Source of the DNA: a virus | IMG/VR virus record: IMGVR_UViG_3300031485_000046 | DNA: 64,000 nt | Direction: 5' to 3' (one strand) | Notes under the pieces: generated by a model | The model's database searches: none | What the model saw: only the letters and a program-made list of their open reading frames with translations | What the model was told of the DNA's origin: nothing | Shown: positions 2,856 to 62,293 of the stretch, piece by piece | How positions within the stretch are numbered: position 1 is the first letter of the stretch | Layout of the letters: every line of letters starts with the position of its first letter | Made by a program: the position numbers and the translations under genes

Positions 2856-2880
2856 TTATGTACCTCCTTCCGAAAAACCT

Positions 2881-3398: not shown

Positions 3399-3567
3399 TC
3401 CGCTCCTAAATCTCTGCATGGATCTCCGGAGTGCCTTCTGGATTCCTGAAAACGGTAATACTGCTTACCTCAGAAGTTATACCTGTTCCAGAATCGTATA
3501 CCTTTAAGCGGTGCTGGAACAAAGGTATTGCCAAATTGAGAAGCCTTACCGCGTCTTCTAATTCCAT

Positions 3568-3822: not shown

Positions 3823-4108
3823 TTTTATACCTTCTCCTTTCTATTATGAAAAATAGACTGATAACCACACCTATTACTTCCACGGATTTCATGTTTCCTT
3901 GGTTGGTACGCTATAGCCTTTACTTTCAAGCTATAGTTTCATGTCTTTTTTGCTACCTAGTGATCCTGAGCGATTCTAGAGCCAAGGTTATACTTCTCGT
4001 TTACATCTATCCGATATATAATACACAGGTAATTCTTTTCCTTCAGATGATGGAAAGAAAAAAAGTAGAATATATTAATCAGCTATATTTTTCACAAACG
4101 AATATGGG

Positions 4109-4134
4109 TAAAAAGAAGGCAAGGTACTGCCTTC
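4109..4134 (-). terminator. Rho-independent terminator downstream of primase gene
   Basis: Stem GAAGGCA/TGCCTTC (4115-4121, 4128-4134), 6-nt loop, U-run on minus strand (A-run 4110-4114 on plus). Confidence 0.5.
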
Positions 4135-4137
4135 TTC

Positions 4138-5046
4138 CTAAATCCAACCTAGCAATTCTTTCTTCAAGGCATCCGCGTCAGTTTGTGCCATATCACCGGG
4201 GTCACCTTGTATTTTTATAGAATAGGCATCCACGCCTCTAAGTATAAGTTCCGCAGTCAATTTTTCCGATTGTTTTATTGCCTGCGGATCATCATCGAAT
4301 ACCACAAATACTTTCTTGAACCTTTTGCTTATTTCCCTTACCTGATATTTAGTGTATTTTATCCCAAAAGTAGCAATAGCACCGTACCCAAATCTCCATG
4401 CGTCTGTGACACCCTCCACACAAATGCAAGCATCATAATCCTTAATTGGTATCGCTTGGTAAAATACGTGCTTGTGTTTTACTATCTCTCGTTGTTCTGG
4501 ACACGTTATATAGCGGAGGGAATGCTTGGCAGTAATATCCCTCGTCTGAAAAGACACAATACGATTTTCCCAATAGATGGGAATAACTAATCTGTGGGAG
4601 AATGATATTCCATCCATAAGACTGATAGGACCTGTGCCTTGTACATCCCATATCTTTTCGATTACCTCTGGATTAAACTTTCTTTTGGTAAGGTATCTTT
4701 TATGACGATCGTTCATTGGTGCAGTAGAAGGAGGCAGTCTGAATTTTTTCTGACCGACTCTTACTGTTACAGTAGATTTTACATGACTCTTACCTCCGTA
4801 TTTCCTTGCTATTTCCTTTGCTTCTTTCTCTGATACGTGTATAAGTAGTGCTAGAGCTTTATGGGTCGCTTTCCAACCGCATCTCCAACAGACATAAAAA
4901 TCATCCGCCATATTGTATCCTAAATGCATTCCTGGATTACCAATGCAAAAAGGGCAGGTCGTATTGACCCACCCTTCCCGACAATGTTTATGCCCTTCCG
5001 TAGCAAATGGTACGTTAAAATCCTTGTACAATTGGATTATATTCAC
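4138..5046 (-). CDS. DNA primase (DnaG-like, CHC2 zinc finger plus TOPRIM)
   Basis: HKHCREGWVNTTCPFC zinc finger; TOPRIM motifs CVEGVTDAWRF, VFDDDPQA, GDPGDM; GTG start with AGGAGG RBS. Confidence 0.85.
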   Translation of the reverse strand: MNIIQLYKDFNVPFATEGHKHCREGWVNTTCPFCIGNPGMHLGYNMADDFYVCWRCGWKATHKALALLIHVSEKEAKEIARKYGGKSHVKSTVTVRVGQKKFRLPPSTAPMNDRHKRYLTKRKFNPEVIEKIWDVQGTGPISLMDGISFSHRLVIPIYWENRIVSFQTRDITAKHSLRYITCPEQREIVKHKHVFYQAIPIKDYDACICVEGVTDAWRFGYGAIATFGIKYTKYQVREISKRFKKVFVVFDDDPQAIKQSEKLTAELILRGVDAYSIKIQGDPGDMAQTDADALKKELLGWI

Positions 5047-5551
5047 GGCAATCCTCCTGCATTAGGGCTTTCAGTTCGTTTATCGTATCCCAAATTCTTT
5101 CGTGTGTCCAACCTTTCTCTCTGAGGATGTGGCGCAATTTCCCACGAACTGCTCTACCGCTCATGCTACCATATTCTTCTTGTGCCTCTATAATCATATC
5201 ATATACGATTTTGGCAGAAGGACTCATACGATCCATCTTTTCTTCCCATTCTTCTTTAGCATCTACCGATTCAGGTGATGGTATAGTATATTCCATTTCT
5301 TCATCGAAAAAAGTACATGGAACCTTTTTCTGATGATACAGGTAATTGTTCAGTTTGGATTTTACGCACAAGGCAATCCAATTTATCAATGGTACGTTTT
5401 TATCCGCTTTGTATGTATTCAAGGCAACTGTATAGCCAACTGTAGCCTCAGAAAAAAGTTCCTCAAAATCTACTCCAGAGGTTTTATTGTACGACCAAGC
5501 TAATTTCCTTAGAAAGTTCTGGTACTTTTTATAGGTAGCGGTATCAGTCAC
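5015..5551 (-). CDS. Sigma-70 family-like transcription factor (regions 2 and 4)
   Basis: DFEELFSEATVGYTVALNTYKADKNVPLINWIALCVKSKL resembles sigma region 2; C-terminal HTH-like segment; start placed at GTG 5549-5551 with AGGAGGA RBS. Confidence 0.55.
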   Translation of the reverse strand: MTDTATYKKYQNFLRKLAWSYNKTSGVDFEELFSEATVGYTVALNTYKADKNVPLINWIALCVKSKLNNYLYHQKKVPCTFFDEEMEYTIPSPESVDAKEEWEEKMDRMSPSAKIVYDMIIEAQEEYGSMSGRAVRGKLRHILREKGWTHERIWDTINELKALMQEDCREYNPIVQGF

Positions 5552-5565
5552 AATATATTCCTCCT

Positions 5566-5784
5566 TTAGGATTTTCTGCTGTACTTGTGATGGTGTGGGC
5601 AGTAACAACGCCTATCAGAACGTAACACCAACCAATCCGCTTTTTTAGCACGGAAGACGCATTCTTCAAACGTATCACCAACAAATATCGCCTTGCGTTT
5701 ATACTTGTGGGAAGAGCAATATCTACAATCACATACCATTTCCATGTAGACTCTATCTCCCCACGTCACTCCCACAATAATCAT
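5566..5784 (-). CDS. Small Cys/His-rich protein
   Basis: 72-codon ORF immediately downstream of SNF2 gene; stop inside RBS of next gene. Confidence 0.45.
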   Translation of the reverse strand: MIIVGVTWGDRVYMEMVCDCRYCSSHKYKRKAIFVGDTFEECVFRAKKADWLVLRSDRRCYCPHHHKYSRKS

Positions 5785-11595: not shown

Positions 11596-12162
11596 ATGGC
11601 ATATCGAAAATCAGGGAGACCTTTAGCAGTAGCAGAACCGTGGAATGAATCAATCCCAGAAAGGGCGTATGATCTTTGCCTTCTAGGATTGCGTGATGCC
11701 GATTTAGCCACGGCATTCGGAGTTTCTATATATACCATTGATAAATGGAAACAGACTCATCCAGAGTTTAGAGAAGCACTATCCAGAGGTAAAGAACAAG
11801 CTGACGCTAAAGTGGCAGACGCACTTTACCATAAGGCAGTAGGCTATGCCCATAAAGCTGTGGACATCAGAATAGTTGACGGCGAGGTAGTGAAAATACC
11901 ATACACTAAAATCTATCCACCAGATACTACTGCCTGCATATTCTGGTTGAAGAATAGGCAAAGACAGTACTGGACGGATACCAAGCAAAATGTTCATACT
12001 GGTACAGTGGGTGTGGAACATACTATGAGACGTCAACTTGACCTTTCTGATTTCTCCAAAGAAGAACTTGCCCTAGCAGAAAAACTAGCCTCTAGGATGC
12101 TTCAGGAGGGTACTCAGGATGCAGAGTTTACAGAAGAGGGGGAGAATGACGGGGATGAGTAA
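11596..12162 (+). CDS. terS: Terminase small subunit
   Basis: Immediately upstream of and overlapping terL; RBS AAAGGAG; family assignment is recalled resemblance to HTH-type small terminases. Confidence 0.7.
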   Translation: MAYRKSGRPLAVAEPWNESIPERAYDLCLLGLRDADLATAFGVSIYTIDKWKQTHPEFREALSRGKEQADAKVADALYHKAVGYAHKAVDIRIVDGEVVKIPYTKIYPPDTTACIFWLKNRQRQYWTDTKQNVHTGTVGVEHTMRRQLDLSDFSKEELALAEKLASRMLQEGTQDAEFTEEGENDGDE

Positions 12163-13714
12163 ATATGAACGTAAGGACGCCTTAAAACGCCAAAGAGAAA
12201 ACATCATCCCAAAATCAGATAGGTTCCAAGCATTACTTTTGAACCCATTGCAGATAAAAGCAGAAAAATGCCGTAGGTCCCTATTTGAATTTATGAAAGA
12301 ATTCTGGCCAGAAGTATCCACAAGTGACCCTACATGGAATTGGCATCTAGAATACCTAGCTAACGAACTGGAAAGGATGATGTATAGAGTAGCAAACAGA
12401 CAACCAAAAGAATACGACCTCATAATAAACATAAGCCCCGGTACCACAAAGTCTACCCTATGTTCCATAATGCTGAATGCATGGGTGTGGGCTAAATGGC
12501 CTTGGCTCCGATTCATCAACGCATCCTATTCTGGAGCCCTATCTCTGGAACATTCAGAATTGTGTCGTGACCTTATACGGTCAGAACGATACAAAAGGTT
12601 ATTCCCGTATTTGGAAATAAAGCAAGACAAGGATACCAAAACTAACTTTAAAATTTTATATGATGAAGAGCGTCTGGATTCCATAACAGGCGAAGCATCT
12701 ACACTAAAAAAGAGTGGTGGTAACAGATACTCCACCTCCGTAGGCGGCACCTTGACTGGATTCCATGCTGATGTACTGTTAGTAGACGATCCATTGGATC
12801 CGCAAAGAGCTGTATCCGACGTGGAAGTCCTTAAAGCCAACACATGGATAGATCAGACACTATCTACCAGAAAGGTAGATAAAGCGGTAACACCAACCAT
12901 AATCATAATGCAAAGGCTCCATCAGAATGACCCTACGGGTTATCTGCTATCCAAGAAGAATAAAAAGATAAAGCATATCTGCCTACCAGGTGAAATACGG
13001 AATTACAGGAAAAATTTGAAACCTAAAGCCCTAGCCAAGTATTATAAGGATGATCTGTTCGACCCTATAAGAATGCCATGGAAAGTCCTTGACGACCTAA
13101 GAGTAGACCTTGGTGAATTCGGGTATGCTTCCCAGATCGGCCAATCCGCAGTATCAGACAAGGGCAACTTATTCAAGGTAGAACACTTTCAAATCATCCA
13201 TAGTATGGTACCAGACCCAGACATAGTAAGATCCATACGATACTGGGACAAAGCCGGTACAGCTGGAGCTGGAGCATACACGGTGGGGGTACGAATGCTT
13301 GCATTGAATAATGGAAAATTCCTTATCACGGATGTTAAAAGAGGGCGGTGGTCCACAGAACAACGGGAAGCCATCATCAGACAGACTGCAGAAGCCGACG
13401 GTACAGACACAATAATCTGGCATGAACAAGAACCAGGTTCAGGCGGAAAAGAATCCGCAGAAGGCACTATAAGAAACCTAGCTGGATACACCACGTATGC
13501 AGATAGGGTAACTAGAAACAAGGAAATGAGAGCGGATCCATATTCAGTCCAAGTAAATAATGGTAACGTACTGTTACTATATGCTCCGTGGAACCAAGAC
13601 TTCATAGAAGAGCACAGATACTTCCCAAATTCAACATATAAGGATCAGGTAGACGCAGCCTCAGGAGCGTTCTCTAAGGCAGTACGGAAAAAGATAGCCG
13701 GTGCGATAGGATAA
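12155..13714 (+). CDS. terL: Terminase large subunit (ATPase plus RNase H-like nuclease)
   Basis: N-terminal ATPase region; C-terminal nuclease-domain pattern (IRYWDKAGTAGAGAY...DQVDAASGAF); start at ATG 12155 with RBS, overlapping terS stop. Confidence 0.9.
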   Translation: MSKYERKDALKRQRENIIPKSDRFQALLLNPLQIKAEKCRRSLFEFMKEFWPEVSTSDPTWNWHLEYLANELERMMYRVANRQPKEYDLIINISPGTTKSTLCSIMLNAWVWAKWPWLRFINASYSGALSLEHSELCRDLIRSERYKRLFPYLEIKQDKDTKTNFKILYDEERLDSITGEASTLKKSGGNRYSTSVGGTLTGFHADVLLVDDPLDPQRAVSDVEVLKANTWIDQTLSTRKVDKAVTPTIIIMQRLHQNDPTGYLLSKKNKKIKHICLPGEIRNYRKNLKPKALAKYYKDDLFDPIRMPWKVLDDLRVDLGEFGYASQIGQSAVSDKGNLFKVEHFQIIHSMVPDPDIVRSIRYWDKAGTAGAGAYTVGVRMLALNNGKFLITDVKRGRWSTEQREAIIRQTAEADGTDTIIWHEQEPGSGGKESAEGTIRNLAGYTTYADRVTRNKEMRADPYSVQVNNGNVLLLYAPWNQDFIEEHRYFPNSTYKDQVDAASGAFSKAVRKKIAGAIG

Positions 13715-13772
13715 ACATATAAAGGTAACCAAACAGATAACCCGTTTAGCCGTAGGCTATAGGGATAAATAA

Positions 13773-13817
13773 TGATACAGATAGATATGGATTCACCTAT
13801 CTGTATCATTTTTTTAT
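13773..13817 (+). terminator. Rho-independent terminator after terL
   Basis: Perfect 12-bp stem TGATACAGATAG/CTATCTGTATCA, 12-nt loop, T-run 13809-13817. Confidence 0.6.
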
Positions 13818-14325
13818 GGTAAAATACTCATACCGTAAGGTAAGCTATGATATAGTAAAAATTGGGTAGTTTGGTAGTTATAGAGGTAGTCAGATAGAAT
13901 AGGAAAAAAACTATCCATAAAAATAACATAGATAGGTAGACTAATATGGTATAATCTATAGAAACCTATATATCAATACAATCCATACTTTTACTATCCA
14001 AATAAGCTAATAATCCAATATAATCCAGATAATCCTAAACAGGTACATATAGTCAATTATAATAAGATACAGAAGAGGCAATCCCAAATCATACTAAGAT
14101 GGTATACCAATATATCTGATACACCATATAACCTATCTCATGTAACCATACGAATATGCATATGGATAAACAGTAAGAACGACATAATACAAATATACAC
14201 CAATTCAATCAAGCTAATAGGAACATACGCAATAAGCTAATATCCGATAAGCCTAAACAGGTACATAGTCAATATCAATATCTAGTCAATAGTAAACTAA
14301 CATGCGAGCCTCCCTAAGGTAGGTC

Positions 14326-14370
14326 CCATAAATTGGTACCATAAATTGGTACCATATCCTGGTTTACCAG
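14326..14370. repeat. Tandem repeat ATAAATTGGTACC (about 2.5 copies)
   Basis: Direct read of sequence. Confidence 0.6.
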
Positions 14371-14688
14371 CATGTGGTAACCTTACCTCCATCCTTACCA
14401 TCACCTATACCACCATTCATCTGGATCTAATCTGCCTATACCCATATTTAATCTATGGTATTTAATAAATGGACACCATATTTCATAAATGGATAGCCAA
14501 AACCATACAAGCCATATCCTATTCCGTATTCCAATCCAATATATAGATACCTATACCTCCACTTCACCATGTACTGGGAAACCCAGTAATTGGTATAAAA
14601 AAATGGGACCTAAGTGTGGTAACCTAGATTTATCTATGTATGATCGTTTATATAGTGAAACCGAGATTTATACCTATTATTTTGTCCT

Positions 14689-15080
14689 CCACTATACCAA
14701 TACGGTGGTATGCTGGATTGTAATCAGGAAATTCAAATACGGAGTAGACCTCGATGTTTTACTATGTATATATAGAACGTATCTTTATAACAGTACCTAC
14801 CAACTATCCACTACGGTGGTGTGTTGGATTGTACTTATAAATATGTGGAAAATAGAAAATGGGAGGTATTTCGATGTTTTACTATGTAGAACCGACGGTC
14901 TGTTTTTGTCAGGAATCTTCCAACTATCCACTACGGTGGTATATTGGGAGATACTTACCGAAACGTGTATGATATGAAATGGGAGGTATTTCGATGTTTT
15001 ACTATGCATATATAGAGATATTGATTGGTTCCCATTTACCCTATATCTTACCCAGTATCCACTACGGTGGTATGTTGGGT
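14689..15080. repeat. Four direct repeats, period about 120-130 bp, with conserved cores CCACTACGGTGGT and GGGAGGTATTTCGATGTTTTACTATG
   Basis: Core copies at about 14689, 14801, 14921, 15051; second core at 14751, 14871, 14991. Confidence 0.7.
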
Positions 15081-15168
15081 AGTATTAATCCGTAGTATGG
15101 GTAGGTACTGTCTAGATTGTTTATCTATATATAGAGAATGAATAAGGTGTGTCCATTCCCAAAATACC

Positions 15169-15697
15169 TCAGGCCCTCCATTATCTAGAATTTTCCCCAA
15201 TTATAAAAATTTGTCAACCTCTGGCAGCTAAATGGAGTATAAGTATCCTACGGATACATGTATAAAAATGAAATCTTGGACACGTATCCAACGGATTATT
15301 TTATAAAAATGGGATTGGATTATTTTTATTTATACAGGTTCAATTTGAGAAAATGCACCTGTTTGAGTTTTCGATGGGTAATTGGTATAACAATAGTTGG
15401 ATTATATAAAAACGGTATGGGATAATACCAGACCCGTTTTGAAGGCATAAATTGCATAAATCAGTTCCGTTTATTTTTTTATTTCCTATGGATGGTACCG
15501 AATATTTCGAGGAGAAAAGGAATCCATAAAAATCATACGAGGTTTTTCATGCTACCTAATCCAAAATACGTGGCGAATTTTCGGCTCCGTAATCGTTTTT
15601 CTAGAGGTGAGCGGTGAATTCATACCGGTAGAAAATGAGCGCCTTCTAGCGCACCGCTGGCGGAGAAACTCATTGGCGGAGAAACTGGCGGAGAAAA
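15169..15697. repeat. Non-coding element B: TCAGGCCCTCCATT box (15169-15182) and three GGCGGAGAAA(C/A) repeats (15659-15669, 15675-15685, 15687-15697)
   Basis: Homologous end motifs and spacing to element A (2881-3398). Confidence 0.6.
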
Positions 15698-15748
15698 TGG
15701 ATGGATTTTTCTGTTTTTCTGTTTTTCTGATTGTTGTACATCGTTTCT

Positions 15749-15797
15749 ACATTCTACATTCTACATTCTACATTCTACATTCTACATTCTGCATTTC
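15749..15797. repeat. Heptanucleotide tandem repeat ATTCTAC, about 7 copies
   Basis: Direct read of sequence. Confidence 0.75.
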
Positions 15798-16019
15798 AGA
15801 AGAATGCATGTGGTACTTTATAAGATGCATGTATGCAATGTCATATGCATCCTTAATTGTCTCCTGATTACTATACAATTATACACTATTCCTATTCCTG
15901 TTTCAATCGTAACAGATATTTTACTATTATATAATAATCTATAGTATTGTGTCATATTGTAGAATATTCTTATATTCATGAATATCAGACAAGCATAATG
16001 CAGAATGCATATTATACAA

Positions 16020-16213
16020 TGCATTATTCAGCTATATTTTTCACAAGCATTTTTTAGTAGTACAATGCATAATGCAGAATGCATCATGCATTATTCAATG
16101 AAACATTTCACAAGTGTTCATACAGTGCATACAATACATTCTGCATCATGCATCATGCATTATTCAGCTATATTTTTCACAAGCATTTTTTAGTAGTACA
16201 ATACATTCTGCAA
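16020..16213. repeat. Two copies of a 50-bp direct repeat (16021-16070, 16157-16206) plus three copies of TTCAATGAAAYATTTCACAAG
   Basis: Direct read of sequence; repeats about 136 bp apart. Confidence 0.6.
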
Positions 16214-16439
16214 TATGCATTGTATAGCATGTATTATTCAATGAAACATTTCACAAGTGTTACTGTATCCGAAGAGTATACAATGCATTTTTCAATGAAA
16301 TATTTCACAAGCGATACTGTGATCGAATTGTATCTGAATGACTATACAATTCACTATTATTTTATAAAACTCTATAGTATTGCAGAATACAGTAGAATTC
16401 AGTAGAATTATATTAAGTGTATAGTCTTTTCATGCATAG

Positions 16440-16467
16440 TTGACATTCTATCGTAGAGTGCTATACT
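16440..16467 (+). promoter_or_regulatory. Sigma-70-type promoter for three-gene cassette
   Basis: TTGACA (16440-16445), 16-nt spacer, TATACT (16462-16467). Confidence 0.5.
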
Positions 16468-16584
16468 GTACTCGTAGCAAGCGAGCGAGCAAGTTCTTTG
16501 ACAACTGAAGAAGCAAGCTCATAACAGAGTAACACTTCTTCAGAACATACGCGCACAACGTTGCGCAGAAAGAGAGTGTGTAGC

Positions 16585-16923
16585 ATGACAACGAGCAGCA
16601 AGAAGAACGTAAACAGTAAGAAAGCTGAAATAGTCGAACAGAAAGCAGTTGAAGTAAAGAAAGAAGAAGTAAGAGAAGCAAAGAAGATTAGCAATACTCA
16701 GAAGTGTGCTGATATGATCATGCAACTTGCGAAAGACGCTAAGTATACTCGCAGTGAAATTTGTAATGCTGTTTCAGATGCACTAACAGCATTAAGCATA
16801 GTCACAGTAAAGACTATGCTTTCAGACTTGCAGAACAGCAAGTATGCAAGACGTTATAGCACTCATACTATCGCAGTAAACAAAGAAACAAAGATTGTAA
16901 CAGTAGCAAGTGAGATAAAATGA
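16585..16923 (+). CDS. Hypothetical lysine-rich protein (cassette gene 1)
   Basis: ATG at 16585 downstream of promoter; 5' leader contains 9-bp inverted repeat CTGAAGAAG/CTTCTTCAG (16503-16545). Confidence 0.55.
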   Translation: MTTSSKKNVNSKKAEIVEQKAVEVKKEEVREAKKISNTQKCADMIMQLAKDAKYTRSEICNAVSDALTALSIVTVKTMLSDLQNSKYARRYSTHTIAVNKETKIVTVASEIK

Positions 16924-17132
16924 AGTATCAGCATGTTGAACGTTCGCAAGCTCTCGCAGTAAGTGACGTTGAAACTTTGCAGAATATTGCAAAAAGACGT
17001 CTGATCGATTTGAAACAGCTTGCAAGAGAAGCAGACTCTTTACTTGTCTTTTCAGTAATAAGAAATACATGTATTCAAATCGATCGAAGCATCGATGATG
17101 CACTTGAAAACGCAAGAAAATTACTGAAGTAG
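16920..17132 (+). CDS. Hypothetical protein (cassette gene 2)
   Basis: ATGA overlap with upstream stop. Confidence 0.5.
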   Translation: MKYQHVERSQALAVSDVETLQNIAKRRLIDLKQLAREADSLLVFSVIRNTCIQIDRSIDDALENARKLLK

Positions 17133-17141
17133 TACAAAAAA

Positions 17142-17185
17142 AGATAGTCAAGTATCTACAATTCGATACTTGACTATCTTTTTAT
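17142..17185 (+). terminator. Rho-independent terminator
   Basis: Perfect 15-bp stem AGATAGTCAAGTATC/GATACTTGACTATCT, 8-nt loop, T-rich tail. Confidence 0.6.
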
Positions 17186-17208
17186 CTCATTTGAAAGAGA
17201 GTGATACT

Positions 17209-17532
17209 ATGTTAGATAATCAGTATGAATTACATCAAAAGATACAAAAAATAGAACACAAGCATATCAGATTACATGCAAGCAATTGTATGTACAAATT
17301 GATGAATATTCAATTGTTACTTGAAGAACAGATTAATCTACTCATTTCTGATATTGTAGCAAATGATGCTTCTGTTAGTGAAATATTGCTAACAGAACGT
17401 CAAAGTACATTTGATAATGAACTTTTTGCGATAACGACAAAAGAAGATAGAAAAGCAATAGCAATACTGCATAATACTATAATCGATAGTATGAATGCAG
17501 TAAGAAAGACAATCATCTATACAGACGAATAA
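17209..17532 (+). CDS. Hypothetical protein (cassette gene 3)
   Basis: ATG at 17209 (MLDNQYELHQ) after weak RBS; ORF track start at 17170 lies inside the terminator. Confidence 0.5.
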   Translation: MLDNQYELHQKIQKIEHKHIRLHASNCMYKLMNIQLLLEEQINLLISDIVANDASVSEILLTERQSTFDNELFAITTKEDRKAIAILHNTIIDSMNAVRKTIIYTDE

Positions 17533-17574
17533 AATTACACAATAGAGCATAATTGATAGCAATTGAATAGAAAA

Positions 17575-17612
17575 GAGTAGTCAATACTAGACTACTCTTT
17601 TCTTTTTTATTC
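17575..17612 (+). terminator. Rho-independent terminator
   Basis: Stem AGAGTAGTC/GACTACTCT, 7-nt loop, T-run. Confidence 0.6.
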
Positions 17613-17750
17613 ATGCATACAATGCATGATGCATCCTGCACTATGCATAGTATAAGCGTTCATAGTAGCATTTGATAACATAACACTACACTATTTATTA
17701 CAATTAGACAATATACTACAATATGATAGTGTAGTGTGTATTGTCTATTC

Positions 17751-17794
17751 TATACACTACAATATAGACAAGTATACACTACAATATAGACAAG
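17751..17794. repeat. Tandem 22-bp direct repeat TATACACTACAATATAGACAAG (2 copies), flanked by inverted repeat ACACTACACTAT/ATAGTGTAGTGT
   Basis: Direct read of sequence. Confidence 0.6.
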
Positions 17795-17998
17795 TATAGA
17801 ATAGAGTATAATAATCTATAGTATGCTACACTATATAGCAATATAATATAATAATATATAATTGTATAGTAAAGCAGATACAATTCAATACAATGACTGC
17901 GCTAGTATACAATGCATGATGCATGATGCATCGTACACAATGCATAATGTAAAATCGATTTTACACGTTGCAGAATGCATGCTGGCTCCTGGCCCCCT

Positions 17999-18152
17999 CT
18001 AAAATTGTGACAAATTTTTCTGGATATTAAAATGGGTAATCCATTATTTTCTAAAGCATATTCATTATTTATTCTACGTATCTTTCACACACCCCTCGTA
18101 AAATTGCTACTGATTTTTCCCAATACTAAAGTGGGTAATCCATTATTTTCGA
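17999..18152. repeat. Two copies of about 55-bp element ending in TGGGTAATCCATTATTTTC (promoter-like)
   Basis: Copies at about 17999-18052 and 18094-18150; degenerate third at about 18340-18375. Confidence 0.55.
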
Positions 18153-18414
18153 TATATCTATTCTGTATGACTGTATAGATAGTATAAGATGCAGTATCCA
18201 ATTTTAACTAATGGATTAATATACCCAATTTACTCATACTATACGTATCTTCATGGATCCGTTTTCTTTCGTCTTTATTTTTACCATACCCCGTCATTCT
18301 GTATGAATTTATCCAAAAATAACCGCATAAATATTTTGTAAAAATTTATATGGGAGTTAAAATGGGTTGATTAGATCAGTAGAGAGGTTAGATCACACTA
18401 GGGAGTTAGATACG

Positions 18415-18452
18415 ATGCATCCTAGCCCGGATCCTGATAGGCTAGGATGCAT
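18415..18452. other. Perfect 13-bp inverted repeat (stem-loop) ATGCATCCTAGCC / GGCTAGGATGCAT with 12-nt loop
   Basis: Direct read of sequence; no T-run follows. Confidence 0.5.
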
Positions 18453-18674
18453 ATAGAAACTATGTTTGTCGTAATATATCTTGAAAACGCATCAGATTCG
18501 TTTCATACTGTGCGATTTCCTTGCTTATGGAAGCTGTTCGTTCTGTTTCAGACGTTGTTTCTATCGTCTAGAGTGAAAAAGATCGAATACCGTGCAAGGA
18601 TTTAACGTGTCATGCCATCCCATTCGGTTGTTCCCTCCGTCCTTGCGACTTTCCTATAAGGGATGGAAACCGGG

Positions 18675-18893
18675 TCATTTCGCCCGCTCCTCCCAGAACC
18701 GTCTGCGTCGCTCCTCCCTGTGACGCTTGATATTCTCCCGCACCCTCTGCGTGCGGGGCGGGAACGTGTTCAGATGGGTCAGCACCGGCTCCACGCTGAC
18801 AGCTCTGCCGAATTCCCTCTCCCATTCCTGGGCGTAGATTTCCTCGTAGGATAACATTTCGCGAAATCTGAGCCCCGTGCATCGTCCGCTCAT
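18675..18893 (-). CDS. Small basic, arginine-rich protein encoded in a GC-rich patch
   Basis: ATG overlaps stop of KdsB-like gene (ATGA); local composition visibly GC-richer than surroundings. Confidence 0.4.
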   Translation of the reverse strand: MSGRCTGLRFREMLSYEEIYAQEWEREFGRAVSVEPVLTHLNTFPPRTQRVRENIKRHREERRRRFWEERAK

Positions 18894-19684
18894 TCCTTAC
18901 CCTCCTTTTTTTCTATAATTTCATCATATTCATTTTCTTTACCAGAGTTTATTATACAACGAACAGCTTCCAAATCAGCAGGAGTATCTACACTAGGTCC
19001 AACTTTTTTTGCTCTTGTTATTTCTACTTTAATGGAAAAATCATGTTCTAATATTCTGAGCTGTTCCAGTGATTCTGCTGATGCCAAAGGTGTTTGTGGC
19101 ATTTTGGCATAATAATGGATTAAGAAACGTCTAGTAAATCCATAAATTCCTATATGTCGGTAGATGGGATATACTTCTTCCGGATCTCTAATAAAAGGGA
19201 TAGGAGACCTACTGAAATATAAAGCATCTCCATTTATTCTGAATGCCACTTTTACTACCGATGGATCATTGATAGTAGCGGTATCTGTAATAAGGGCACA
19301 TATCGTAGCAGATTCCGTAGCCCTATTTTCAGTTTTATAAAATAATGATATTACTTCATCAATCATACAAGGATTAAGTAATGGTTCATCCCCTTGTATG
19401 TTTATCACTATATTATTATTAGAGAATTTTTTAGCTATTTCCACAACTCTACTAGTTCCGTTTGTATGATTTGGAGAAGTTAGCATAGCTTCTCCACCGA
19501 AATTATTTACAGCCTGCACGATTCTTTCATCGTCAGTAGCTACAATCAACCGGTCAAGTAAAGTAGATCGTGAGGCTCGCTCGTACACTCTCTGGATCAT
19601 TGTTTTTCCGCATATATCAGCTAGAGGTTTACCGGGGAGCCTTGTAGAATTGTATCTAGCGGGGATAACTCCTAAAGTTATCAT
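18890..19684 (-). CDS. kdsB: CMP-Kdo synthetase-like cytidylyltransferase (3-deoxy-manno-octulosonate cytidylyltransferase family)
   Basis: IPARYNSTRLPGKPL, VATDDE, GGE, QGDEP, ALYFSR, HIGIYGF, LEQLR, VDTPADLE match KdsB signature blocks as recalled. Confidence 0.85.
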   Translation of the reverse strand: MITLGVIPARYNSTRLPGKPLADICGKTMIQRVYERASRSTLLDRLIVATDDERIVQAVNNFGGEAMLTSPNHTNGTSRVVEIAKKFSNNNIVINIQGDEPLLNPCMIDEVISLFYKTENRATESATICALITDTATINDPSVVKVAFRINGDALYFSRSPIPFIRDPEEVYPIYRHIGIYGFTRRFLIHYYAKMPQTPLASAESLEQLRILEHDFSIKVEITRAKKVGPSVDTPADLEAVRCIINSGKENEYDEIIEKKEGKE

Positions 19685-19703
19685 TATTTATCACTTCCAT
19701 TCA

Positions 19704-19850
19704 TTATTTAAGATTATGTGGTACTTTTTTGTCAAGTTCCAGTAATTTTGCATTAACTTTTTCTAGTTCAGCCATGAGAAATATTACCATATCGCATCTA
19801 TCAGGTAGTATTTTTTCTTTACCTGTTACTTTCCTCCATAATTCTACCAT
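19704..19850 (-). CDS. Short ORF (48 aa) paralogous to C-terminal half of the 20615-20914 protein; not in ORF track
   Basis: ELWRKVTGKEKILPDRCDMVIFLMAELEKVNAKL vs RLWRKTTGKDFIMPDRCDLVVYLMEELDKAKRRI; no clear RBS. Confidence 0.3.
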   Translation of the reverse strand: MVELWRKVTGKEKILPDRCDMVIFLMAELEKVNAKLLELDKKVPHNLK

Positions 19851-19906
19851 CGGGATTTGTCCAAAGTTTCTTGTTATTGTCGTATTTCTATCCAGTTCTA
19901 TAATAC

Positions 19907-20443
19907 TTATTCAGAAAGGTTGTCATGTTCACTTGCATTTTCCTCCTTTGTTGGAAGTGGTACCGGTAACTTTTCTTTTATGCAATTCATAAGGATTGTA
20001 TATTTCCTTTCTTGCATCATTTCTAATGCTTTTACCATCGTTTTTCCCCAACCATTACATGAATATTTTCCTAAGTCTTTAATGTAGGCAACGTATCCTT
20101 TCATTCCGTTTAGTTCTGTAGTCATTGGCTGAATTGTAATGGAATACGGAATTTTCATCAATTCATCTATAGTGGGATCCTCGTTTCTGTTTATATTTTG
20201 TGAAATTACCGACATATTTATCATGTCAAACCTATTAGACATACGGTCAGGTACGTTAATCGTAGCACCACATCCGGAGCATCGCAAAATTAAGGAATCT
20301 AATTCTGCAATCATTTTATATGGATTTGGATACGCATACTGTATTTGGTCAAGAGTGTCAATTGGTTTAGCGCAAAGTGGGCAAATTATTTGTCTACCGT
20401 CACAAAACAATACATAACGCCCTTGTCCTATAGAAAGACTCAT
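19907..20443 (-). CDS. Hypothetical protein with paired CxxC motifs
   Basis: 178-codon ORF with AAAGGAG RBS. Confidence 0.6.
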   Translation of the reverse strand: MSLSIGQGRYVLFCDGRQIICPLCAKPIDTLDQIQYAYPNPYKMIAELDSLILRCSGCGATINVPDRMSNRFDMINMSVISQNINRNEDPTIDELMKIPYSITIQPMTTELNGMKGYVAYIKDLGKYSCNGWGKTMVKALEMMQERKYTILMNCIKEKLPVPLPTKEENASEHDNLSE

Positions 20444-20637
20444 TCTTCCATCTCCTTTTTAAGCAAAGCCTTCTGCATTTTCCCCAAAGCCGCAAACAAC
20501 GTATCTTTACAACCCGTATAGATATACAGACTGCCCACAACTTTACCATCAACGAGTACAGTATATGTAGGAGATTTGATTGGCCCATGGTTCTCTTCGA
20601 GTATTATCACTATTTCATTCCCCCTTTTCCATTTCAC
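20440..20637 (-). CDS. Hypothetical small protein
   Basis: GTG start, no clear RBS, overlaps upstream gene by 23 nt. Confidence 0.35.
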   Translation of the reverse strand: MKWKRGNEIVIILEENHGPIKSPTYTVLVDGKVVGSLYIYTGCKDTLFAALGKMQKALLKKEMEE

Positions 20638-20914
20638 GTATTCTACGTTTAGCTTTATCCAATTCCTCCATCAGATATACTACTAAATCACATCTGTCTG
20701 GCATGATAAAATCTTTCCCTGTTGTTTTTCGCCATAGTCTTACCGCTCTCATATCCGCTTTCCATACAATATCGAACACATTCTGGAGTTGTTTAGCGTC
20801 TTCTTTCAAGGAATCCACGAGCATTTTCATATTTTCTAACCGTTTTTTCAAGGAATCTCTCTCTTTAACCAGCTTTTCTAGTTCTTGCATGAGCAATTTT
20901 CGATCACTTTCCAT
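20615..20914 (-). CDS. Hypothetical coiled-coil protein
   Basis: ATG 20912-20914 with AAGGAGGG RBS. Confidence 0.55.
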   Translation of the reverse strand: MESDRKLLMQELEKLVKERDSLKKRLENMKMLVDSLKEDAKQLQNVFDIVWKADMRAVRLWRKTTGKDFIMPDRCDLVVYLMEELDKAKRRIREMEKGE

Positions 20915-21044
20915 CAATGTCCCTCCTTATAAATTTGCGCTTCACTATATTATACAACACCATTTTTGCTCATTTATACATAGTTTTCCATGAAAATTGT
21001 GTTTAATTTGCAATTATAGTATACTGTATAGTTTTCTGTCATAG

Positions 21045-21095: not shown

Positions 21096-22556
21096 GTGAG
21101 TAGGATAGAAAATATCAGTACCAACGAATTGGTTGGGCAATTACAGCGGATTACAGCTATGGCTGAACTGGCTACAAGAATGAATGTCGGTGCTAGGATG
21201 GGAATGCAGTATGACGGCCAACGGGATATTGCAAAAGCTCTTGGCTACCCACAAACAATACGGTACAACGACCTCCTTGCCGCATATACCCGTCAGGATA
21301 TGGCGAAAGCCATTATAGATCGTCCCGTAAAATCTACTTGGCGTGGAGATTTCAAGCTAGTAGAAACCCACAGGGACGATGATACGCAACTCGAAACAGC
21401 TTGGTCTACATTATATAGGAAATTGCACATAAAACAGAATTTCCTTAGAGTGGACAAGCTAGCCTGCCTCGGTAATTATGCTCTTCTTTTTCTTGGTTTC
21501 AATGATGTGAATAGTCCTGAAGAATTGATACGACCTGTTTCTGCTGGAGTAGGACGTGAATTGCTGTATTTGAAACCGTTTGGACAGAATGTCATTCAGA
21601 TCAAAGATTGGGAAGATGATACAAGTTCACCTGAATATGGAATGCCGCTTATTTATGAAGTAGACATTGGAGAAGCATCATCTAAAAAGAGCCGAACTGT
21701 CAGCATCCATCGGTCAAGGATTGTTCATGTAGCTTTCGACCTACTTGAATCAGAGTATGAAGGTGCTCCTGTTCTAGAAGTTGTTTTTAACCGTCTGAAA
21801 GACCTTGAAAAGCTAGTAGGCGGTTCTGCTGAAATGTTCTGGAGAGGTGCTAGACCTGGATATGCAGGTAAAATTGATCCAGAATACATGCTGACGAAAG
21901 ATACGGAAGAGGGATTGAAACGCCAGCTGGATGAGTTTGAAAATAATCTGCGAAGGATACTCATGCTTGAAGGTGTTACACTCGATAGCCTTGAGCCGCA
22001 GGTAGTTGACCCGTCTATGCACGTTGATATCCAGATTCAGATGATTTCTGCTATTACTGGTATTCCTAAGAGAATTCTTACAGGAAGTGAGCGAGGTGAT
22101 CTTGCTTCTACGCAAGACAAAGATAACTGGCTCGACCTTATCCAAATGCGACGGGAAGAATATGCTGAACCTAAGATCATTCGAGCAACCATTGACCGTT
22201 GTATTGAATTTGGTGTGCTTCCTAAGCCTGAAAAGGAAACATACAAAATAAAATGGCAGGATCTTTATGCACCGTCTGTTAAGGATCAAGCGGACATTGG
22301 GCAGATACGTTCGCTTGCCTTGAAACATTATACGTACAATCCTGAAGCAGAGCAGTTTATCCCGTTTGAAGCGTTCCTTACATTCTTCCTTGGTTTGGAA
22401 GATGAGGAAGTGGAGTATATCAAAAAGCTCCAGCAAACAAGTGAAAGGATATTGACGCCTGAATTAAAGGAACTTGCGAATGAAAATGCACCAACACGGA
22501 GAGAACGCCCTCCGCGGAGAGGAATACCTCGAGAGGATGAAGAACTAGAAAAGTGA
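21096..22556 (+). CDS. Portal protein
   Basis: Size and position (first gene of head module after terminase region); GTG start abuts RBS so true start may be downstream. Confidence 0.75.
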   Translation: MSRIENISTNELVGQLQRITAMAELATRMNVGARMGMQYDGQRDIAKALGYPQTIRYNDLLAAYTRQDMAKAIIDRPVKSTWRGDFKLVETHRDDDTQLETAWSTLYRKLHIKQNFLRVDKLACLGNYALLFLGFNDVNSPEELIRPVSAGVGRELLYLKPFGQNVIQIKDWEDDTSSPEYGMPLIYEVDIGEASSKKSRTVSIHRSRIVHVAFDLLESEYEGAPVLEVVFNRLKDLEKLVGGSAEMFWRGARPGYAGKIDPEYMLTKDTEEGLKRQLDEFENNLRRILMLEGVTLDSLEPQVVDPSMHVDIQIQMISAITGIPKRILTGSERGDLASTQDKDNWLDLIQMRREEYAEPKIIRATIDRCIEFGVLPKPEKETYKIKWQDLYAPSVKDQADIGQIRSLALKHYTYNPEAEQFIPFEAFLTFFLGLEDEEVEYIKKLQQTSERILTPELKELANENAPTRRERPPRRGIPREDEELEK

Positions 22557-61176: not shown

Positions 61177-61178
61177 TT

Positions 61179-62292: not shown

Positions 62293-62293
62293 C

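What the first reader, a model, noticed from the sequence alone, without database searches (positions are those of the whole stretch)
13715..16560. About 2.8 kb AT-rich region without credible ORFs between terminase and the rest of the late genes
After terL and its terminator there is no convincing protein-coding ORF for about 2.8 kb in a genome that is otherwise tightly packed. The stretch contains several unrelated repeat families. Such a region could hold the packaging site or genome termini, replication origins, or non-coding RNAs; its position separating terminase from portal is atypical.
Basis: seen in the sequence. Interest (0 to 1): 0.65.

Follow-up and report, generated by a model that had tools for sequence, protein, structure and literature searches.

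The report
Conserved non-coding repeat module after terminase
The 2.8 kb after the phage terminase gene really is non-coding, and it is one arm of a 5 kb conserved block of DNA repeat arrays (plus a probable hairpin RNA) built around a tiny operon for a DNA-binding protein; its job in this uncultured phage group is not yet known.

Summary
Window 13715-16560 has 33.7% GC against 41.9% for the genome. No ORF in it reaches the codon score of real genes or has a ribosome-binding site. Repeated 10-mers cover 41% of it, against a median of 9%.

It is not junk. Phages with 85-99% identical TerL keep the same layout: terL, about 2.8 kb non-coding arm A, a small + strand operon, about 1.1 kb non-coding arm B (17533-18674), a variable - strand gene block, then portal. 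Relatives with about 60% identical TerL lack the module. Bases 14315-15664 are 93-99% identical between close relatives, above terL third-codon identity (89-90%).

Arm A has two parts:
- Left: a conserved extended -10 promoter and 3-4 tandem 120-nt units with stem-loops that are more stable on the + strand.
- Right: GGAGAAAC triplets, about 30 ATGYAKN heptads and TTCAG..ATTTCACAAG units. The same motifs recur, many in the opposite orientation, in arm B.

The operon's first protein has a lysine-rich tail and a winged helix.

Best reading (about 0.4): protein-binding arrays plus a non-coding RNA form an early or chromosome-handling control locus, like the untranslated repeat regions of phage T5. 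A replication origin or the physical genome ends remain live rivals. No known RNA family, tRNA, DnaA-box cluster or recoded gene was found.

The parts
13767..13814 (+). terL terminator: 18-bp stem hairpin followed by a T-run
   Evidence: Inverted repeat I22, 94% complementary; sequence. Conserved in L140 and L149.
13715..16584 (.). Non-coding arm A (the finding): AT-rich and repeat-dense, with no credible ORF
   Evidence: GC 33.7%. ORF codon scores 0.063 or less against at least 0.089 for real genes, and no SD. Repeated-10-mer coverage 41% against 9%. Colinear in L140, L149, L152, L142 and L141.
13945..13955 (+). Candidate extended -10 promoter TATGgTATAAT, which could drive a + strand non-coding transcript
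   Evidence: Read from the sequence. The same ATATGGTATAAT is present in L152, L149 and the 86%-TerL lineage L135. Block 13865-14014 is 90% identical to L152, against 77% at terL third-codon positions. Promoter activity is inferred.
13960..14600 (+). C/A-rich, G-poor tract with repeated ATAAAT(T)GGTA motifs (GGTACCATAAATT x2.7 at 14322-14356)
   Evidence: GC skew down to -0.34. Tandem repeat. The motif recurs in L142 and L141, and all lineages carry a C/A-rich tract after terL although its sequence differs.
14630..15125 (+). Four tandem units of about 120 nt. Each has a TTTTACTATGTATATATAGA-like box, a dyad or stem-loop core (CCAC-TACG-GTGG with an outer stem) and AAATGGGAGGTATTTCGATG
   Evidence: Repeat families D4, D5 and D10; TRF period 120. 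There are 3 units in L140 and L149 and 4 in L152. 11 of 13 cores fold with z of -2 or lower; the + strand is more stable than the - strand in 11 of 13; G.U pairs number 16 on + against 6 on -. Column covariation is not significant.
15156..15221 (.). 66-nt element (..CCTCAGGCCCTCCATT..AAAATTTGTCAACCTC), a paralogue of an element at 2868-2933 in the early non-coding region
   Evidence: 70% identity, E 1e-6. Conserved in L142, L152 and L149. Both copies change together in lineage L134/L135.
15230..15311 (+). Two 41-nt direct repeats, each with a GTATCC-TAC-GGATAC hairpin
   Evidence: Repeat family D12. Conserved in L140 and L149.
15659..15729 (+). GGCGGAGAAA(C) x3 followed by TTTTTCTG x3
   Evidence: TRF. 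GGAGAAAC occurs 8 times against 2.0 expected, 5 of them in two clusters (3368-3398 and 15662-15685). Three GAGAAAC copies sit at the same place in L135, L142 and L152, and in the early non-coding region of L134.
15745..15795 (-). 7.3 contiguous heptads TTCTACA (read on the - strand: ATGTAGA x6 plus ATGCAGA)
   Evidence: TRF: 97% matches. Aligned at 88% with L134-L139. Several assemblies break here.
15990..16320 (.). ATGYAKN heptad arrays in both orientations, interleaved with five units of about 67 nt (TACAATGCATT.TTCAG..ATTTCACAAG)
   Evidence: Repeat families D1, D3, D6 and D7. All 4 exact ATGCAGAAT sites of the window lie in 15786-16146. TTTCACAAG occurs exactly 5 times here. Lag-7 autocorrelation 0.42. 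The unit is conserved in L135, L152 and L149. One copy lies at 4066-4097 in an early intergenic region.
16322..16396 (.). Left arm of a 75-nt imperfect inverted repeat whose partner (17815-17889) lies beyond the operon
   Evidence: Inverted repeat I1, 71% complementary; also I3 (81%), I4 (91%) and I15 (20 nt, 100%). 12-mers shared between the flanks: 20 inverted and 13 direct, against 0.2 in shuffles.
16440..16467 (+). Operon promoter TTGACA-16-(TG)TATACT, tied for the best sigma-70-type score in the scanned locus
   Evidence: 11 of 12 matches with TG. Conserved in L135, L149 and L152.
16585..16923 (+). Protein A, 112 aa: disordered lysine-rich N-terminal tail plus winged-helix domain
   Evidence: Codon score 0.184. 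130 homologues, nearly all on contigs under 5 kb. AlphaFold2 pLDDT above 90 for residues 37-110, with helix-helix-helix then a beta hairpin. Foldseek best matches are Fur, SarX, MarR, ScpB and ORC winged helices, at E of 0.05 or more.
16920..17132 (+). Protein B, 70 aa: two long antiparallel helices
   Evidence: 44 homologues. Model pLDDT 94.8. Absent from lineage L152.
17209..17532 (+). Protein C, 107 aa, replaced by unrelated small proteins in other lineages; terminators at 17138-17183 and 17569-17603
   Evidence: ORF and terminators. Different third and fourth genes in L135, L149 and L152.
17533..18674 (.). Non-coding arm B: heptad arrays (17612-17652 and 17905-17980), 22-nt tandem repeat (17751-17810), right inverted-repeat arm (17815-17889), CCCC.CTAAAATTGTGACAAATTTTTC units (17993-18150), a 13-bp-stem hairpin (18415-18452) and a conserved 18450-18600 block
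   Evidence: Colinear with L152 and L135. GC 33.4%.

Best explanation
The stretch is the left arm of a conserved module of about 5 kb, mostly non-coding: arm A, a three-gene early mini-operon, and arm B. The module acts at the nucleic-acid level and has two layers.

(1) Left third (about 13950-15150). A conserved extended -10 promoter probably drives a + strand non-coding transcript. It starts with a C/A-rich leader and carries 3-4 tandem stem-loop units.

(2) Right two thirds of arm A, and arm B. These hold arrays of short DNA repeats: about 30 ATGYAKN heptads in runs of 4-7, GGAGAAAC triplets, TTCAG..ATTTCACAAG units and lineage-specific 22-25-mers. They lie on both sides of the mini-operon, many in opposite orientation.

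The most likely mechanism is as follows. The operon is read first, from a near-consensus host-type promoter. Its product A, which has a sequence-specific winged helix and a lysine-rich histone-H1-like tail, binds the flanking arrays. Binding builds a spread or looped nucleoprotein complex. That complex shuts the operon off and organises this part of the phage chromosome for an early chromosome-handling step such as DNA entry, end handling or the start of replication.

In organisation it works like the untranslated repeat regions of the phage T5 terminal repeat, and like phi29 p6 or plasmid omega-type arrays (the phi29 comparison is from my own knowledge).

Shown: non-coding status, conservation, repeat anatomy, repeats shared by both arms in both orientations, the fold of proteins A and B, and motifs shared with the replication-gene non-coding region.

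Inferred: transcription, which protein binds which repeat, looping, and the biological role.
For: - Non-coding.
- Layout conserved in six lineages, and missing in relatives with about 60% identical TerL.
- 14315-15664 is 93-99% identical to L149 and L140, against 89-90% at terL third-codon positions.
- Conserved islands in the 85%-TerL lineages.
- Heptad periodicity and repeats shared between the two flanks, far above shuffles.
- ATGCAGAAT clusters in both arms of every relative that covers them, but occurs at most once, in 4 loci, among the roughly 120 unrelated loci.
- Protein A is a winged helix. The residues of its third helix are invariant in 52 homologues, and the heptad core is the same in all lineages.
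- The variable third gene goes with lineage-specific 22-25-nt repeats that occur on both sides of the operon.
- Near-consensus promoter and strong terminators of the operon.
- Hairpin cores fold with z of -2 or lower in 11 of 13 units, and are more stable on the + strand with an excess of G.U pairs. Promoter conserved across lineages.
- In T5, conserved untranslated repeat regions with distant inverted partners flank conserved rightward genes, including the small DNA-binding protein A2, and a hypervariable leftward block: 10.1101/866236.
Against: - No binding, transcription or phenotype data exist.
- The arrays do not overlap the operon promoter. The nearest lies about 45 nt upstream of the -35 hexamer; most are 150-700 nt away.
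- A 7-bp period is typical of ribbon-helix-helix proteins, not winged helices, and protein B is not ribbon-helix-helix.
- Foldseek matches for A are weak (E of 0.05 or more).
- Column-wise covariation in the stem-loops is not above shuffles. Whole-unit fold z-scores are only -0.8 to -1.4.
- The explanation does not account for so many different repeat families, for the C/A-rich tract, or for the copies of three motifs in the early non-coding region.
Confidence: 0.4

Rival explanations
1. Replication origin. The repeats are iterons for a phage initiator, either the O-like protein at 931-2421 or protein A. The AT-rich segments act as unwinding elements. Transcription from the operon promoter activates initiation. 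This could be a second origin sharing sites with the non-coding region beside the replication genes, as SPP1 has oriL and oriR (my own knowledge).
For: - AT-rich and dense in iteron-like repeats.
- Lies on the flat minimum of cumulative GC skew, 11.5-21 kb.
- GGAGAAAC triplets and two other motifs are shared with the 2856-3405 non-coding region next to the O-like, DnaC-like and DnaB-like genes, and they change together between lineages.
- The four 120-nt units have dyad-symmetric cores.
- Precedent: the 2.7-kb repeat-bearing non-coding region of the V. cholerae PLE satellite contains its origin (PMC7145576).
Against: - Locally the module lies between convergent units (terL to the right, accessory block to the left), not divergent ones.
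- No DnaA-box enrichment.
- 4 kb is far larger than known phage origins (my own knowledge).
- O-type initiators usually bind inside or next to their own gene (my own knowledge), and a 52-bp palindrome sits in the middle of that gene.
- Spacing of the GGAGAAAC copies varies between lineages.
Confidence: 0.25
2. Physical ends or packaging start. The virion DNA is linear with a direct terminal repeat or a pac site inside arm A. terL would then be the last gene of the right end, and the mini-operon would hold the first genes to enter and be expressed, as at the ends of T7 or in the T5 terminal repeat. The circular assembly hides the ends.
For: - Directly downstream of terL, with co-directional early-looking genes next to it.
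- A hypervariable accessory block lies alongside, as in the T5 terminal repeat.
- Conserved untranslated repeats with distant inverted partners, as in T5.
- The genome closes as a 64,611-bp circle in two assemblies, which is compatible with a collapsed terminal repeat.
Against: - There is no read-level evidence at all.
- All assembly breaks in the region are explained by internal exact repeats or by population variation.
- The nearest characterised TerL relatives, at only 24% identity, are T1-like phages, which package by the headful mechanism (packaging type is my own knowledge).
- T5's hallmark DnaA-box pairs are absent.
- A 247-nt promoter region upstream of terS is the more usual place for a cos or pac site (usual location is my own knowledge).
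Confidence: 0.2
3. Purely an RNA locus. Most of arm A encodes one long or several small non-coding RNAs, for example a sponge with repeated stem-loops and GGGAGG motifs. The DNA repeats would simply be RNA modules.
For: - Conserved + strand extended -10 promoter.
- Repeated stem-loops with UACG tetraloops, more stable on the + strand, with a G.U excess.
- The SD-like GGGAGG..ATG is conserved at the nucleotide level but not as an ORF.
Against: - No Rfam family in the window.
- No significant covariation and modest z-scores for whole units.
- Heptad arrays occur in both orientations and on both sides of the operon, which fits double-stranded DNA sites better than RNA.
- No clear terminator was found.
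Confidence: 0.15
4. A selfish or mobile insertion (a cassette with long imperfect inverted flanks) that landed between terL and portal and does nothing for the phage.
For: - Clade-specific presence; absent in relatives with about 60% identical TerL.
- Imperfect inverted repeats flank the operon.
- The operon and right flank diverge faster than TerL: protein A is 73-79% identical where TerL is 97-99%.
Against: - No transposase, integrase or homing endonuclease in the module.
- The inverted pairs are not nested and are only 71-91% alike.
- Protein A homologues were found in no IMG/VR contig and in only one reference-genome contig, a 2.7-kb fragment in a Methanolobus MAG bin.
- Always at the same site.
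- Parts are under stronger constraint than terL silent sites.
- Three motifs are shared with another region of the same genome.
Confidence: 0.07
5. Decayed or recoded protein genes.
For: ORFs of 162 and 108 aa exist, and gene callers call the first one.
Against: - Codon scores are below all real genes and there is no SD.
- No Pfam or PHROG family hits; NCBIfam was run on the 162-aa ORF only, also with no hit.
- The 162-aa ORF is made of the tandem repeats and is not called in L152.
- Of 9 substitutions against L140 read from the alignment, 5 are at second and 4 at third codon positions (read by eye).
- Alternative codes open nothing.
- The late genes read normally in code 11.
Confidence: 0.03

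Closest known systems
Untranslated repeat regions of the phage T5 left terminal repeat (injection-stop region); Davison 2020, bioRxiv 10.1101/866236
   Same: - Kilobase-scale untranslated regions packed with direct repeats, inverted repeats and palindromes.
- The order of repeats is better conserved among relatives than the neighbouring ORFs.
- Inverted-repeat partners lie kilobases apart in two separate repeat regions.
- Conserved rightward genes, including a small double-stranded-DNA-binding protein (A2), sit next to a hypervariable leftward block (searches compared).
   Different: - No DnaA-box pairs.
- No evidence that the region lies in a terminal repeat.
- No named family for the three operon proteins in Pfam, PHROGs or NCBIfam; they were not compared directly with T5 A1 or A2.
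- The host is probably a Firmicute-like bacterium, inferred from SD and promoter types.
- The module lies between terL and portal.
Iteron-type origins in large non-coding regions (the 2.7-kb non-coding region of V. cholerae PLE, PMC7145576; lambda ori and SPP1 oriL/oriR from my own knowledge)
   Same: Several repeat families in an AT-rich non-coding region. A DNA-binding protein gene lies nearby. A second site elsewhere in the genome shares motifs, comparable to SPP1 oriL and oriR.
   Different: Locally convergent rather than divergent transcription. The initiator-like gene is 12 kb away. The region is much larger than lambda- or SPP1-type origins. No replication data exist.
Omega (ribbon-helix-helix ParB) heptad arrays of plasmid pSM19035 (PMC9499535)
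   Same: Runs of 4 or more contiguous 7-bp repeats in direct and inverted orientation near promoters (one search compared).
   Different: No ribbon-helix-helix protein: A is a winged helix and B a helical hairpin. No ParA-type ATPase was seen among the annotated genes. The phage looks virulent.
phi29 protein p6 nucleoprotein complexes; SPO1 TF1 (my own knowledge)
   Same: A small, basic, phage-encoded DNA-binding protein that coats preferred repeated or bendable sites and controls both early transcription and replication.
   Different: No sequence or fold relation was shown. Binding is untested here.
T7-type genome ends (terminal repeat flanked by arrays of short imperfect repeats, with terL as the last gene; my own knowledge)
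   Same: The non-coding repeats follow terL and are followed by strongly promoted small early genes.
   Different: TerL is not T7-like. No phage RNA polymerase was seen. The ends are unknown.

Membership tests
T5-type terminal-repeat untranslated repeat regions / injection stop signal | Lies inside a long direct terminal repeat of the virion DNA | not testable with these tools
   Only assembled contigs are available. The genome closes as a circle.
T5-type terminal-repeat untranslated repeat regions / injection stop signal | [quoted passage not shown] | tested here: met
   The accessory block varies between phages with 97-99% identical TerL.
T5-type terminal-repeat untranslated repeat regions / injection stop signal | Paired DnaA boxes in the inverted repeats | tested here: not met
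   TTATCCACA with up to 1 mismatch: 26 matches against 21 expected, with no cluster in the module.
Iteron-type replication origin | Multiple direct repeats next to an AT-rich unwinding stretch | tested here: inconclusive
   Many repeat families, and segments of about 28% GC at 15800-16400. It is unknown which repeat, if any, is an iteron.
Iteron-type replication origin | Cognate initiator encoded at or next to the origin | tested here: inconclusive
   The O-like initiator is at 931-2421, 12 kb away. Protein A is a winged helix of no known initiator family. GGAGAAAC triplets are shared with the non-coding region near the replication genes.
Iteron-type replication origin | Strand-skew switch or divergent transcription at the site | tested here: inconclusive
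   The module lies on the flat skew minimum at 11.5-21 kb, but between locally convergent units.
Omega-type heptad operator/centromere (pSM19035) | Four or more contiguous 7-bp repeats in direct and inverted orientation | tested here: met
   TTCTACA x7.3; ATGCAT-type runs of 4-6 heptads in both orientations.
Omega-type heptad operator/centromere (pSM19035) | Ribbon-helix-helix binding protein and a ParA ATPase partner | tested here: not met
   Protein B is a two-helix hairpin and protein A a winged helix. No ParA was seen among the annotated ORFs.
Known structured RNA families (Rfam 15) and tRNA/tmRNA | Covariance-model match at the gathering score; ARAGORN hit | tested here: not met
   No family reached its gathering score in the window. 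The only hits in 13000-19500 at E of 1 or less were chance miRNA matches. No tRNA.
Novel structured RNA (tandem stem-loop units) | Base pairs kept by compensatory changes | tested here: inconclusive
   71% of cells paired, against 32-47% when the partners are slid. Covariation does not exceed shuffles. The local hairpins are stable and biased to the + strand.
cos/pac packaging site | Terminase cleavage site with fixed or semi-fixed read starts | not testable with these tools
   No reads are available.
Stop-codon-recoded late genes | Long ORFs appear under genetic code 4, 15 or 25 | tested here: not met
   Longest ORF 197 aa, with no gene-like set of ORFs.

The most novel reading that the evidence does not exclude
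The module is a phage 'chromatin nucleation centre'. A histone-H1-like winged-helix protein, encoded by the first operon expressed, loads on about 30 heptad sites on both sides of its own gene. With the tandem stem-loop RNA, it controls a staged step of the incoming chromosome: either a T5-like pause and restart of DNA entry or the licensing of replication. This would be a new family of proteins and cis sites, unrelated in sequence to T5 A1/A2, phi29 p6 or plasmid omega.
Probability: 0.15. Interest if true: 0.75.

Novelty: new variant of a known kind. Interest (0 to 1): 0.55.

Why it matters
Tailed phages rarely spend 6-7% of a 64.6-kb genome on non-coding DNA. Where they do (the ends of T5 and T7, satellite and plasmid origins), that DNA runs key steps such as DNA entry, early shut-off, replication start and packaging.

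This module marks a whole clade of uncultured phages with their own replisome and 7-deazaguanine DNA-modification genes. More than 100 protein-A clusters were found in metagenomes.

The module also explains why assemblies of these phages break at this locus. It pairs a new winged-helix/lysine-tail protein family with a defined, conserved DNA motif (ATGCAGAAT heptads), and that pairing can be tested directly by EMSA or DAP-seq.

Tried and rejected
- Alternative genetic codes 4, 15 and 25: no gene-like ORFs.
- Pfam and PHROGs on the two largest ORFs of the region, and NCBIfam on the 162-aa one: nothing.
- Rfam at E of 1 or less on the locus and at gathering score on the whole window; tRNA and tmRNA: nothing.
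- Nucleotide similarity to 50,697 GenBank phages, near and distant modes: none. There is no cultured close relative by TerL, portal or helicase.
- DnaA boxes: not enriched.
- Small peptides behind the GGGAGG..ATG motifs: the reading frame and start codon are not conserved between copies or lineages. Rejected.
- Ribbon-helix-helix fold for protein B, which would have matched heptad binding: rejected, because it is a two-helix hairpin.
- Transposon-like element: no recombinase, and the inverted pairs are not nested.
- Archaeal host (TATA-like boxes; portal nearest to haloviruses): rejected, because the phage encodes a sigma factor, a beta-clamp, RecA, DnaB/DnaC and a DnaG-type primase.
- Sigma-70 promoter reading of the TTTCACAAG units: a plausible -10 exists only in the window lineage, not in L135.
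- A 14-mer scan of IMG/VR returned only chance hits and wasted one scan.
- Protein A and B scans of IMG/VR found nothing. The reference-genome scan found only one mis-binned 2.7-kb contig. The metagenome scan gave only short contigs.

Full report
**Context**

The window is almost a whole phage genome. Identical Logan contigs from SRR34859213 cover window 18868 through the wrap-around to 14886 (60,630 bp) and 16173-18717. This gives a circle of 64,611 bp. The JGI source contig is 64,752 bp, which is 141 nt of terminal overlap more.

The genes are:
- terS 11596-12162, terL 12119-13714, portal 21096-22556 and the head and tail genes on the + strand.
- A large - strand block with an O-like initiator, DnaC-like loader, DnaB-like helicase, DnaG-type primase, SNF2 helicase, family A polymerase with an intein, clamp and clamp loader, RecA, SbcCD-like proteins, ThyX, and QueC, QueF, tgt-like and YhhQ proteins.
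- A sigma-70 region-2 protein.

No cultured phage is close: TerL is at most 50% identical and there is no nucleotide match. Strong AAGGAGG ribosome sites and TTGACA-17-TATACT promoters point to a Firmicute-like bacterial host. This is an inference.

**Checking the observation**

terL ends at 13714 and is followed by an 18-bp-stem hairpin and a T-run at 13767-13814. The next real gene starts at 16585.
- GC is 33.7% against 41.9% for the genome.
- On a codon-usage log-odds trained on 33 genes of this genome (mean 0.166, minimum 0.089), every ORF of 50 aa or more in the stretch scores 0.063 or less, and none has a Shine-Dalgarno sequence. The three genes at 16585-17532 score 0.15-0.18.
- The 162-aa ORF at 14489-14977 is built from the tandem repeats. 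It has no family hit. It is not called in L152, whose TerL is 97.5% identical.
- Codes 4, 15 and 25 open nothing gene-like.
- Elsewhere the genome has gaps of 550 nt or less.
- Repeat density is exceptional. Repeated 10-mers cover 41% of the stretch, against a median of 9% for equal windows. The four top windows all lie between 14 and 20 kb.

The gene-poor zone continues beyond a 1-kb operon as a second arm, 17533-18674.

**Anatomy of arm A, left to right**
- terL terminator.
- A candidate extended -10 promoter, TATGgTATAAT, at 13945-13955.
- A C/A-rich, G-poor tract up to about 14600, with ATAAAT(T)GGTA motifs.
- Four units of about 120 nt (14630-15125). Each has a TTTTACTATGTATATATAGA-like box, a stem-loop core CCAC-UACG-GUGG with an outer stem, and AAATGGGAGGTATTTCGATG.
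- A 66-nt element (15156-15221).
- Two 41-nt repeats.
- GGCGGAGAAA x3 (15659-15697) and TTTTTCTG x3.
- 7.3 perfect heptads TTCTACA (15745-15795).
- ATGCAT-type heptad runs in both orientations, interleaved with five units of about 67 nt (TACAATGCATT.TTCAG..ATTTCACAAG) (15990-16320).
- A 75-nt inverted-repeat arm (16322-16396).
- The operon promoter, TTGACA-16-(TG)TATACT, at 16440-16467.

TTCTACA is the reverse complement of TGTAGAA, a one-base variant of TGCAGAA. The 'heptad', 'ATGCAT' and 'ATGCAGAAT' families are therefore one family, ATGYAKN, in two orientations. All four exact ATGCAGAAT sites of the 64 kb lie in 15786-16146. Lag-7 autocorrelation is 0.42 against 0.28.

**Anatomy of the operon and arm B**

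The operon encodes three proteins:
- A, 112 aa.
- B, 70 aa.
- C, 107 aa.

It ends in two strong terminators.

Arm B carries more heptad runs (17612-17652 and 17905-17980), a 22-nt tandem repeat, the partner of the 75-nt inverted repeat (17815-17889), two or three CCCC.CTAAAATTGTGACAAATTTTTC units, a 13-bp-stem hairpin, and a conserved block up to about 18600.

The two flanks of the operon share 20 12-mers in inverted orientation and 13 in direct orientation. Shuffles give 0.2.

**Comparison with relatives**

TerL homologues at 80-98% identity sit on short contigs. Fetching them, together with the contigs that carry protein A, gave six lineages:
- Close relatives, TerL 97-99% identical: L140, L149-151 and L152-154.
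- More distant relatives, TerL 85-86% identical: L134-139, L142 and L141.

All lineages that reach far enough show the same order: terL, 1.7-2.9 kb without credible genes, an operon starting with protein A, 1.1-1.7 kb without genes, a variable - strand block (absent in L135), then portal.

Relatives with 46-61% identical TerL have portal directly or shortly after terL and no such module. The module is therefore a clade-specific, conserved feature.

Against L149 and L140, bases 14315-15664 are 93-99% identical, while terL third-codon positions are 89-90% identical. Against L152, the blocks 13865-14014 (90%) and 14615-14764 (87%) exceed the 77% seen at third positions. Unit number varies (3 or 4), and indels of 47-184 nt occur between blocks.

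In the 85% lineages the following survive:
- The stem-loop units (67-75% identity).
- The 66-nt element.
- Three GAGAAAC copies.
- The heptads.
- The TTCAG..ATTTCACAAGCG unit.
- The operon promoter.
- The heptads and AAAATTG.GACAAATTTTT units of arm B.

ATGCAGAAT clusters in both arms of every relative. Among the roughly 120 unrelated viral loci fetched by accident, it occurs at most once, in 4 loci.

Each lineage also has its own 22-25-nt tandem repeat. It occurs on both sides of the operon in opposite orientation, and it goes with a different third gene.

Nearly all of the 130 protein-A homologues sit on contigs under 5 kb. This fits assemblies breaking in the flanking repeats.

**A second site in the same genome**

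The largest other gap, 2856-3405, lies in the early - strand operon three genes from the O-like initiator. It carries the 66-nt element (70% identity, E 1e-6), three GGAGAAAC copies and AGAATGCATATTAT, in the same orientation as in arm A. GGAGAAAC occurs 8 times against 2.0 expected, and 5 of these are in the two clusters.

The early gap of lineage L134 has the same two elements. The lineage-specific version of the 66-nt element (AGGCCCCCAGGTA instead of CAGGCCCTCCATT) is found in both of its copies. This points to a shared trans-acting factor or to gene conversion.

In the early copy, the element forms an intrinsic terminator on the - strand, 45 nt ahead of the next gene.

**Proteins**

Protein A:
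- It has a variable lysine-rich tail and a conserved domain of about 75 aa.
- AlphaFold2 models the domain as three helices and a beta hairpin at pLDDT above 90.
- Foldseek places it among Fur, SarX, MarR, ScpB and ORC winged helices, but only at E of 0.05 or more.
- No PDB sequence match.
- The third helix is invariant across 52 homologues, in step with the invariant heptad core.

Protein B is a two-helix hairpin (pLDDT 95) and not ribbon-helix-helix. It is missing from lineage L152.

None of A, B or C has a significant family hit.

**RNA tests**

No Rfam family and no tRNA were found. Whole 120-nt units fold only slightly better than shuffles (z -0.8 to -1.4).

On 13 units from four lineages, a 12-pair helix is 71% paired, against 32-47% when the partners are slid. 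Covariation does not exceed shuffles.

The 41-nt cores do better:
- 11 of 13 fold with z of -2 or lower.
- The + strand is more stable than the - strand in 11 of 13.
- G.U pairs number 16 on the + strand against 6 on the - strand.

The loops are UACG on the + strand. Together with the conserved + strand promoter, this gives moderate support for a + strand transcript. It is not proof.

**Interpretation**

The right two thirds of arm A, and arm B, look like double-stranded protein-binding arrays. The left third looks like an RNA with repeated stem-loops.

The organisation resembles what Davison describes for the T5 terminal repeat (10.1101/866236):
- Untranslated repeat regions better conserved than the ORFs.
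- Inverted partners kilobases apart.
- Conserved rightward genes including a small DNA-binding protein.
- A hypervariable leftward block.

The T5 DnaA boxes are absent here, and a terminal position cannot be tested.

An origin is also plausible, given the AT-rich iterons, the skew plateau, the motifs shared with the replication-gene gap and the PLE precedent. However, the local transcription is convergent, and the O-like gene holds its own 52-bp palindrome.

Heptad arrays recall pSM19035 omega sites, but neither a ribbon-helix-helix protein nor a ParA is present.

I therefore commit, at about 0.4, to this reading: a nucleoprotein control locus in which the operon's winged-helix protein loads on the flanking arrays, with an associated non-coding RNA, acting early on the phage chromosome. 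Origin (0.25) and physical ends (0.2) are the main rivals or overlapping roles.

**What remains unexplained**
- The number of distinct repeat families.
- The compositionally conserved C/A-rich tract.
- The 14-mer spacing of the heptads relative to a winged-helix footprint.
- The role of the phage sigma factor.
- The conserved 18450-18600 block.

Noticed in passing
window 2856-3405 (also 3823-4137): A second non-coding region, inside the early - strand operon. It shares three modules with the finding: the 66-nt element, GGAGAAAC x3 and AGAATGCATATTAT. A TTTTTCACAA unit lies at 4066-4097. The 66-nt element here forms an intrinsic terminator on the - strand, 45 nt upstream of the next gene, which hints at antitermination control.
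   Followed up: partly
window 1696-1747: A 52-bp near-perfect palindrome (25-nt arms, 88% complementary) in the middle of the O-like replication-initiator gene (931-2421). This is where lambda-type origins sit (my own knowledge), so it is an alternative origin candidate.
   Followed up: no
window 18675-20917: The - strand accessory block next to arm B differs completely between phages with 97-99% identical TerL. Here it holds a cytidylyltransferase (PF02348), a HicB-like protein and a 60%-GC 72-aa gene. Elsewhere it holds ThyX, a P22_Y8K6-family protein or an N6/N4 methyltransferase. Homology with L152 ends near 18600, and the Logan assembly breaks at 18717 and 18868.
   Followed up: partly
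window 46440-47090 and 60205-62436: Gene set for 7-deazaguanine DNA modification: QueC, QueF, a tgt/DpdA-like protein and a YhhQ-type transporter.
   Followed up: no
window 55511-57355: The family A DNA polymerase is interrupted by an intein (PF14890, residues 189-308).
   Followed up: no
window 5015-5608: A phage-encoded sigma-70 region-2 protein (PF04542). Its promoter motif was not identified. Promoters for the terS and portal operons and the - strand accessory block look host-type.
   Followed up: partly
window 16565-16584 and 17190-17208; L135 4318-4338 and 5002-5021: The operon genes are preceded by a conserved GAAAGAGAGTGAT leader instead of the AAGGAGG used by other genes of the phage.
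   Followed up: no
window 27575-29526: A methyltransferase (PF13489) and a sulfotransferase (PF13469) are encoded inside the head-gene block.
   Followed up: no
window 18415-18600: A 13-bp perfect-stem hairpin with no T-run on either side, followed by a 150-nt block that is nearly identical in L152. On the - strand the whole stretch folds with z = -2.5. It may be a 3' element of the accessory block or a recombination boundary.
   Followed up: partly
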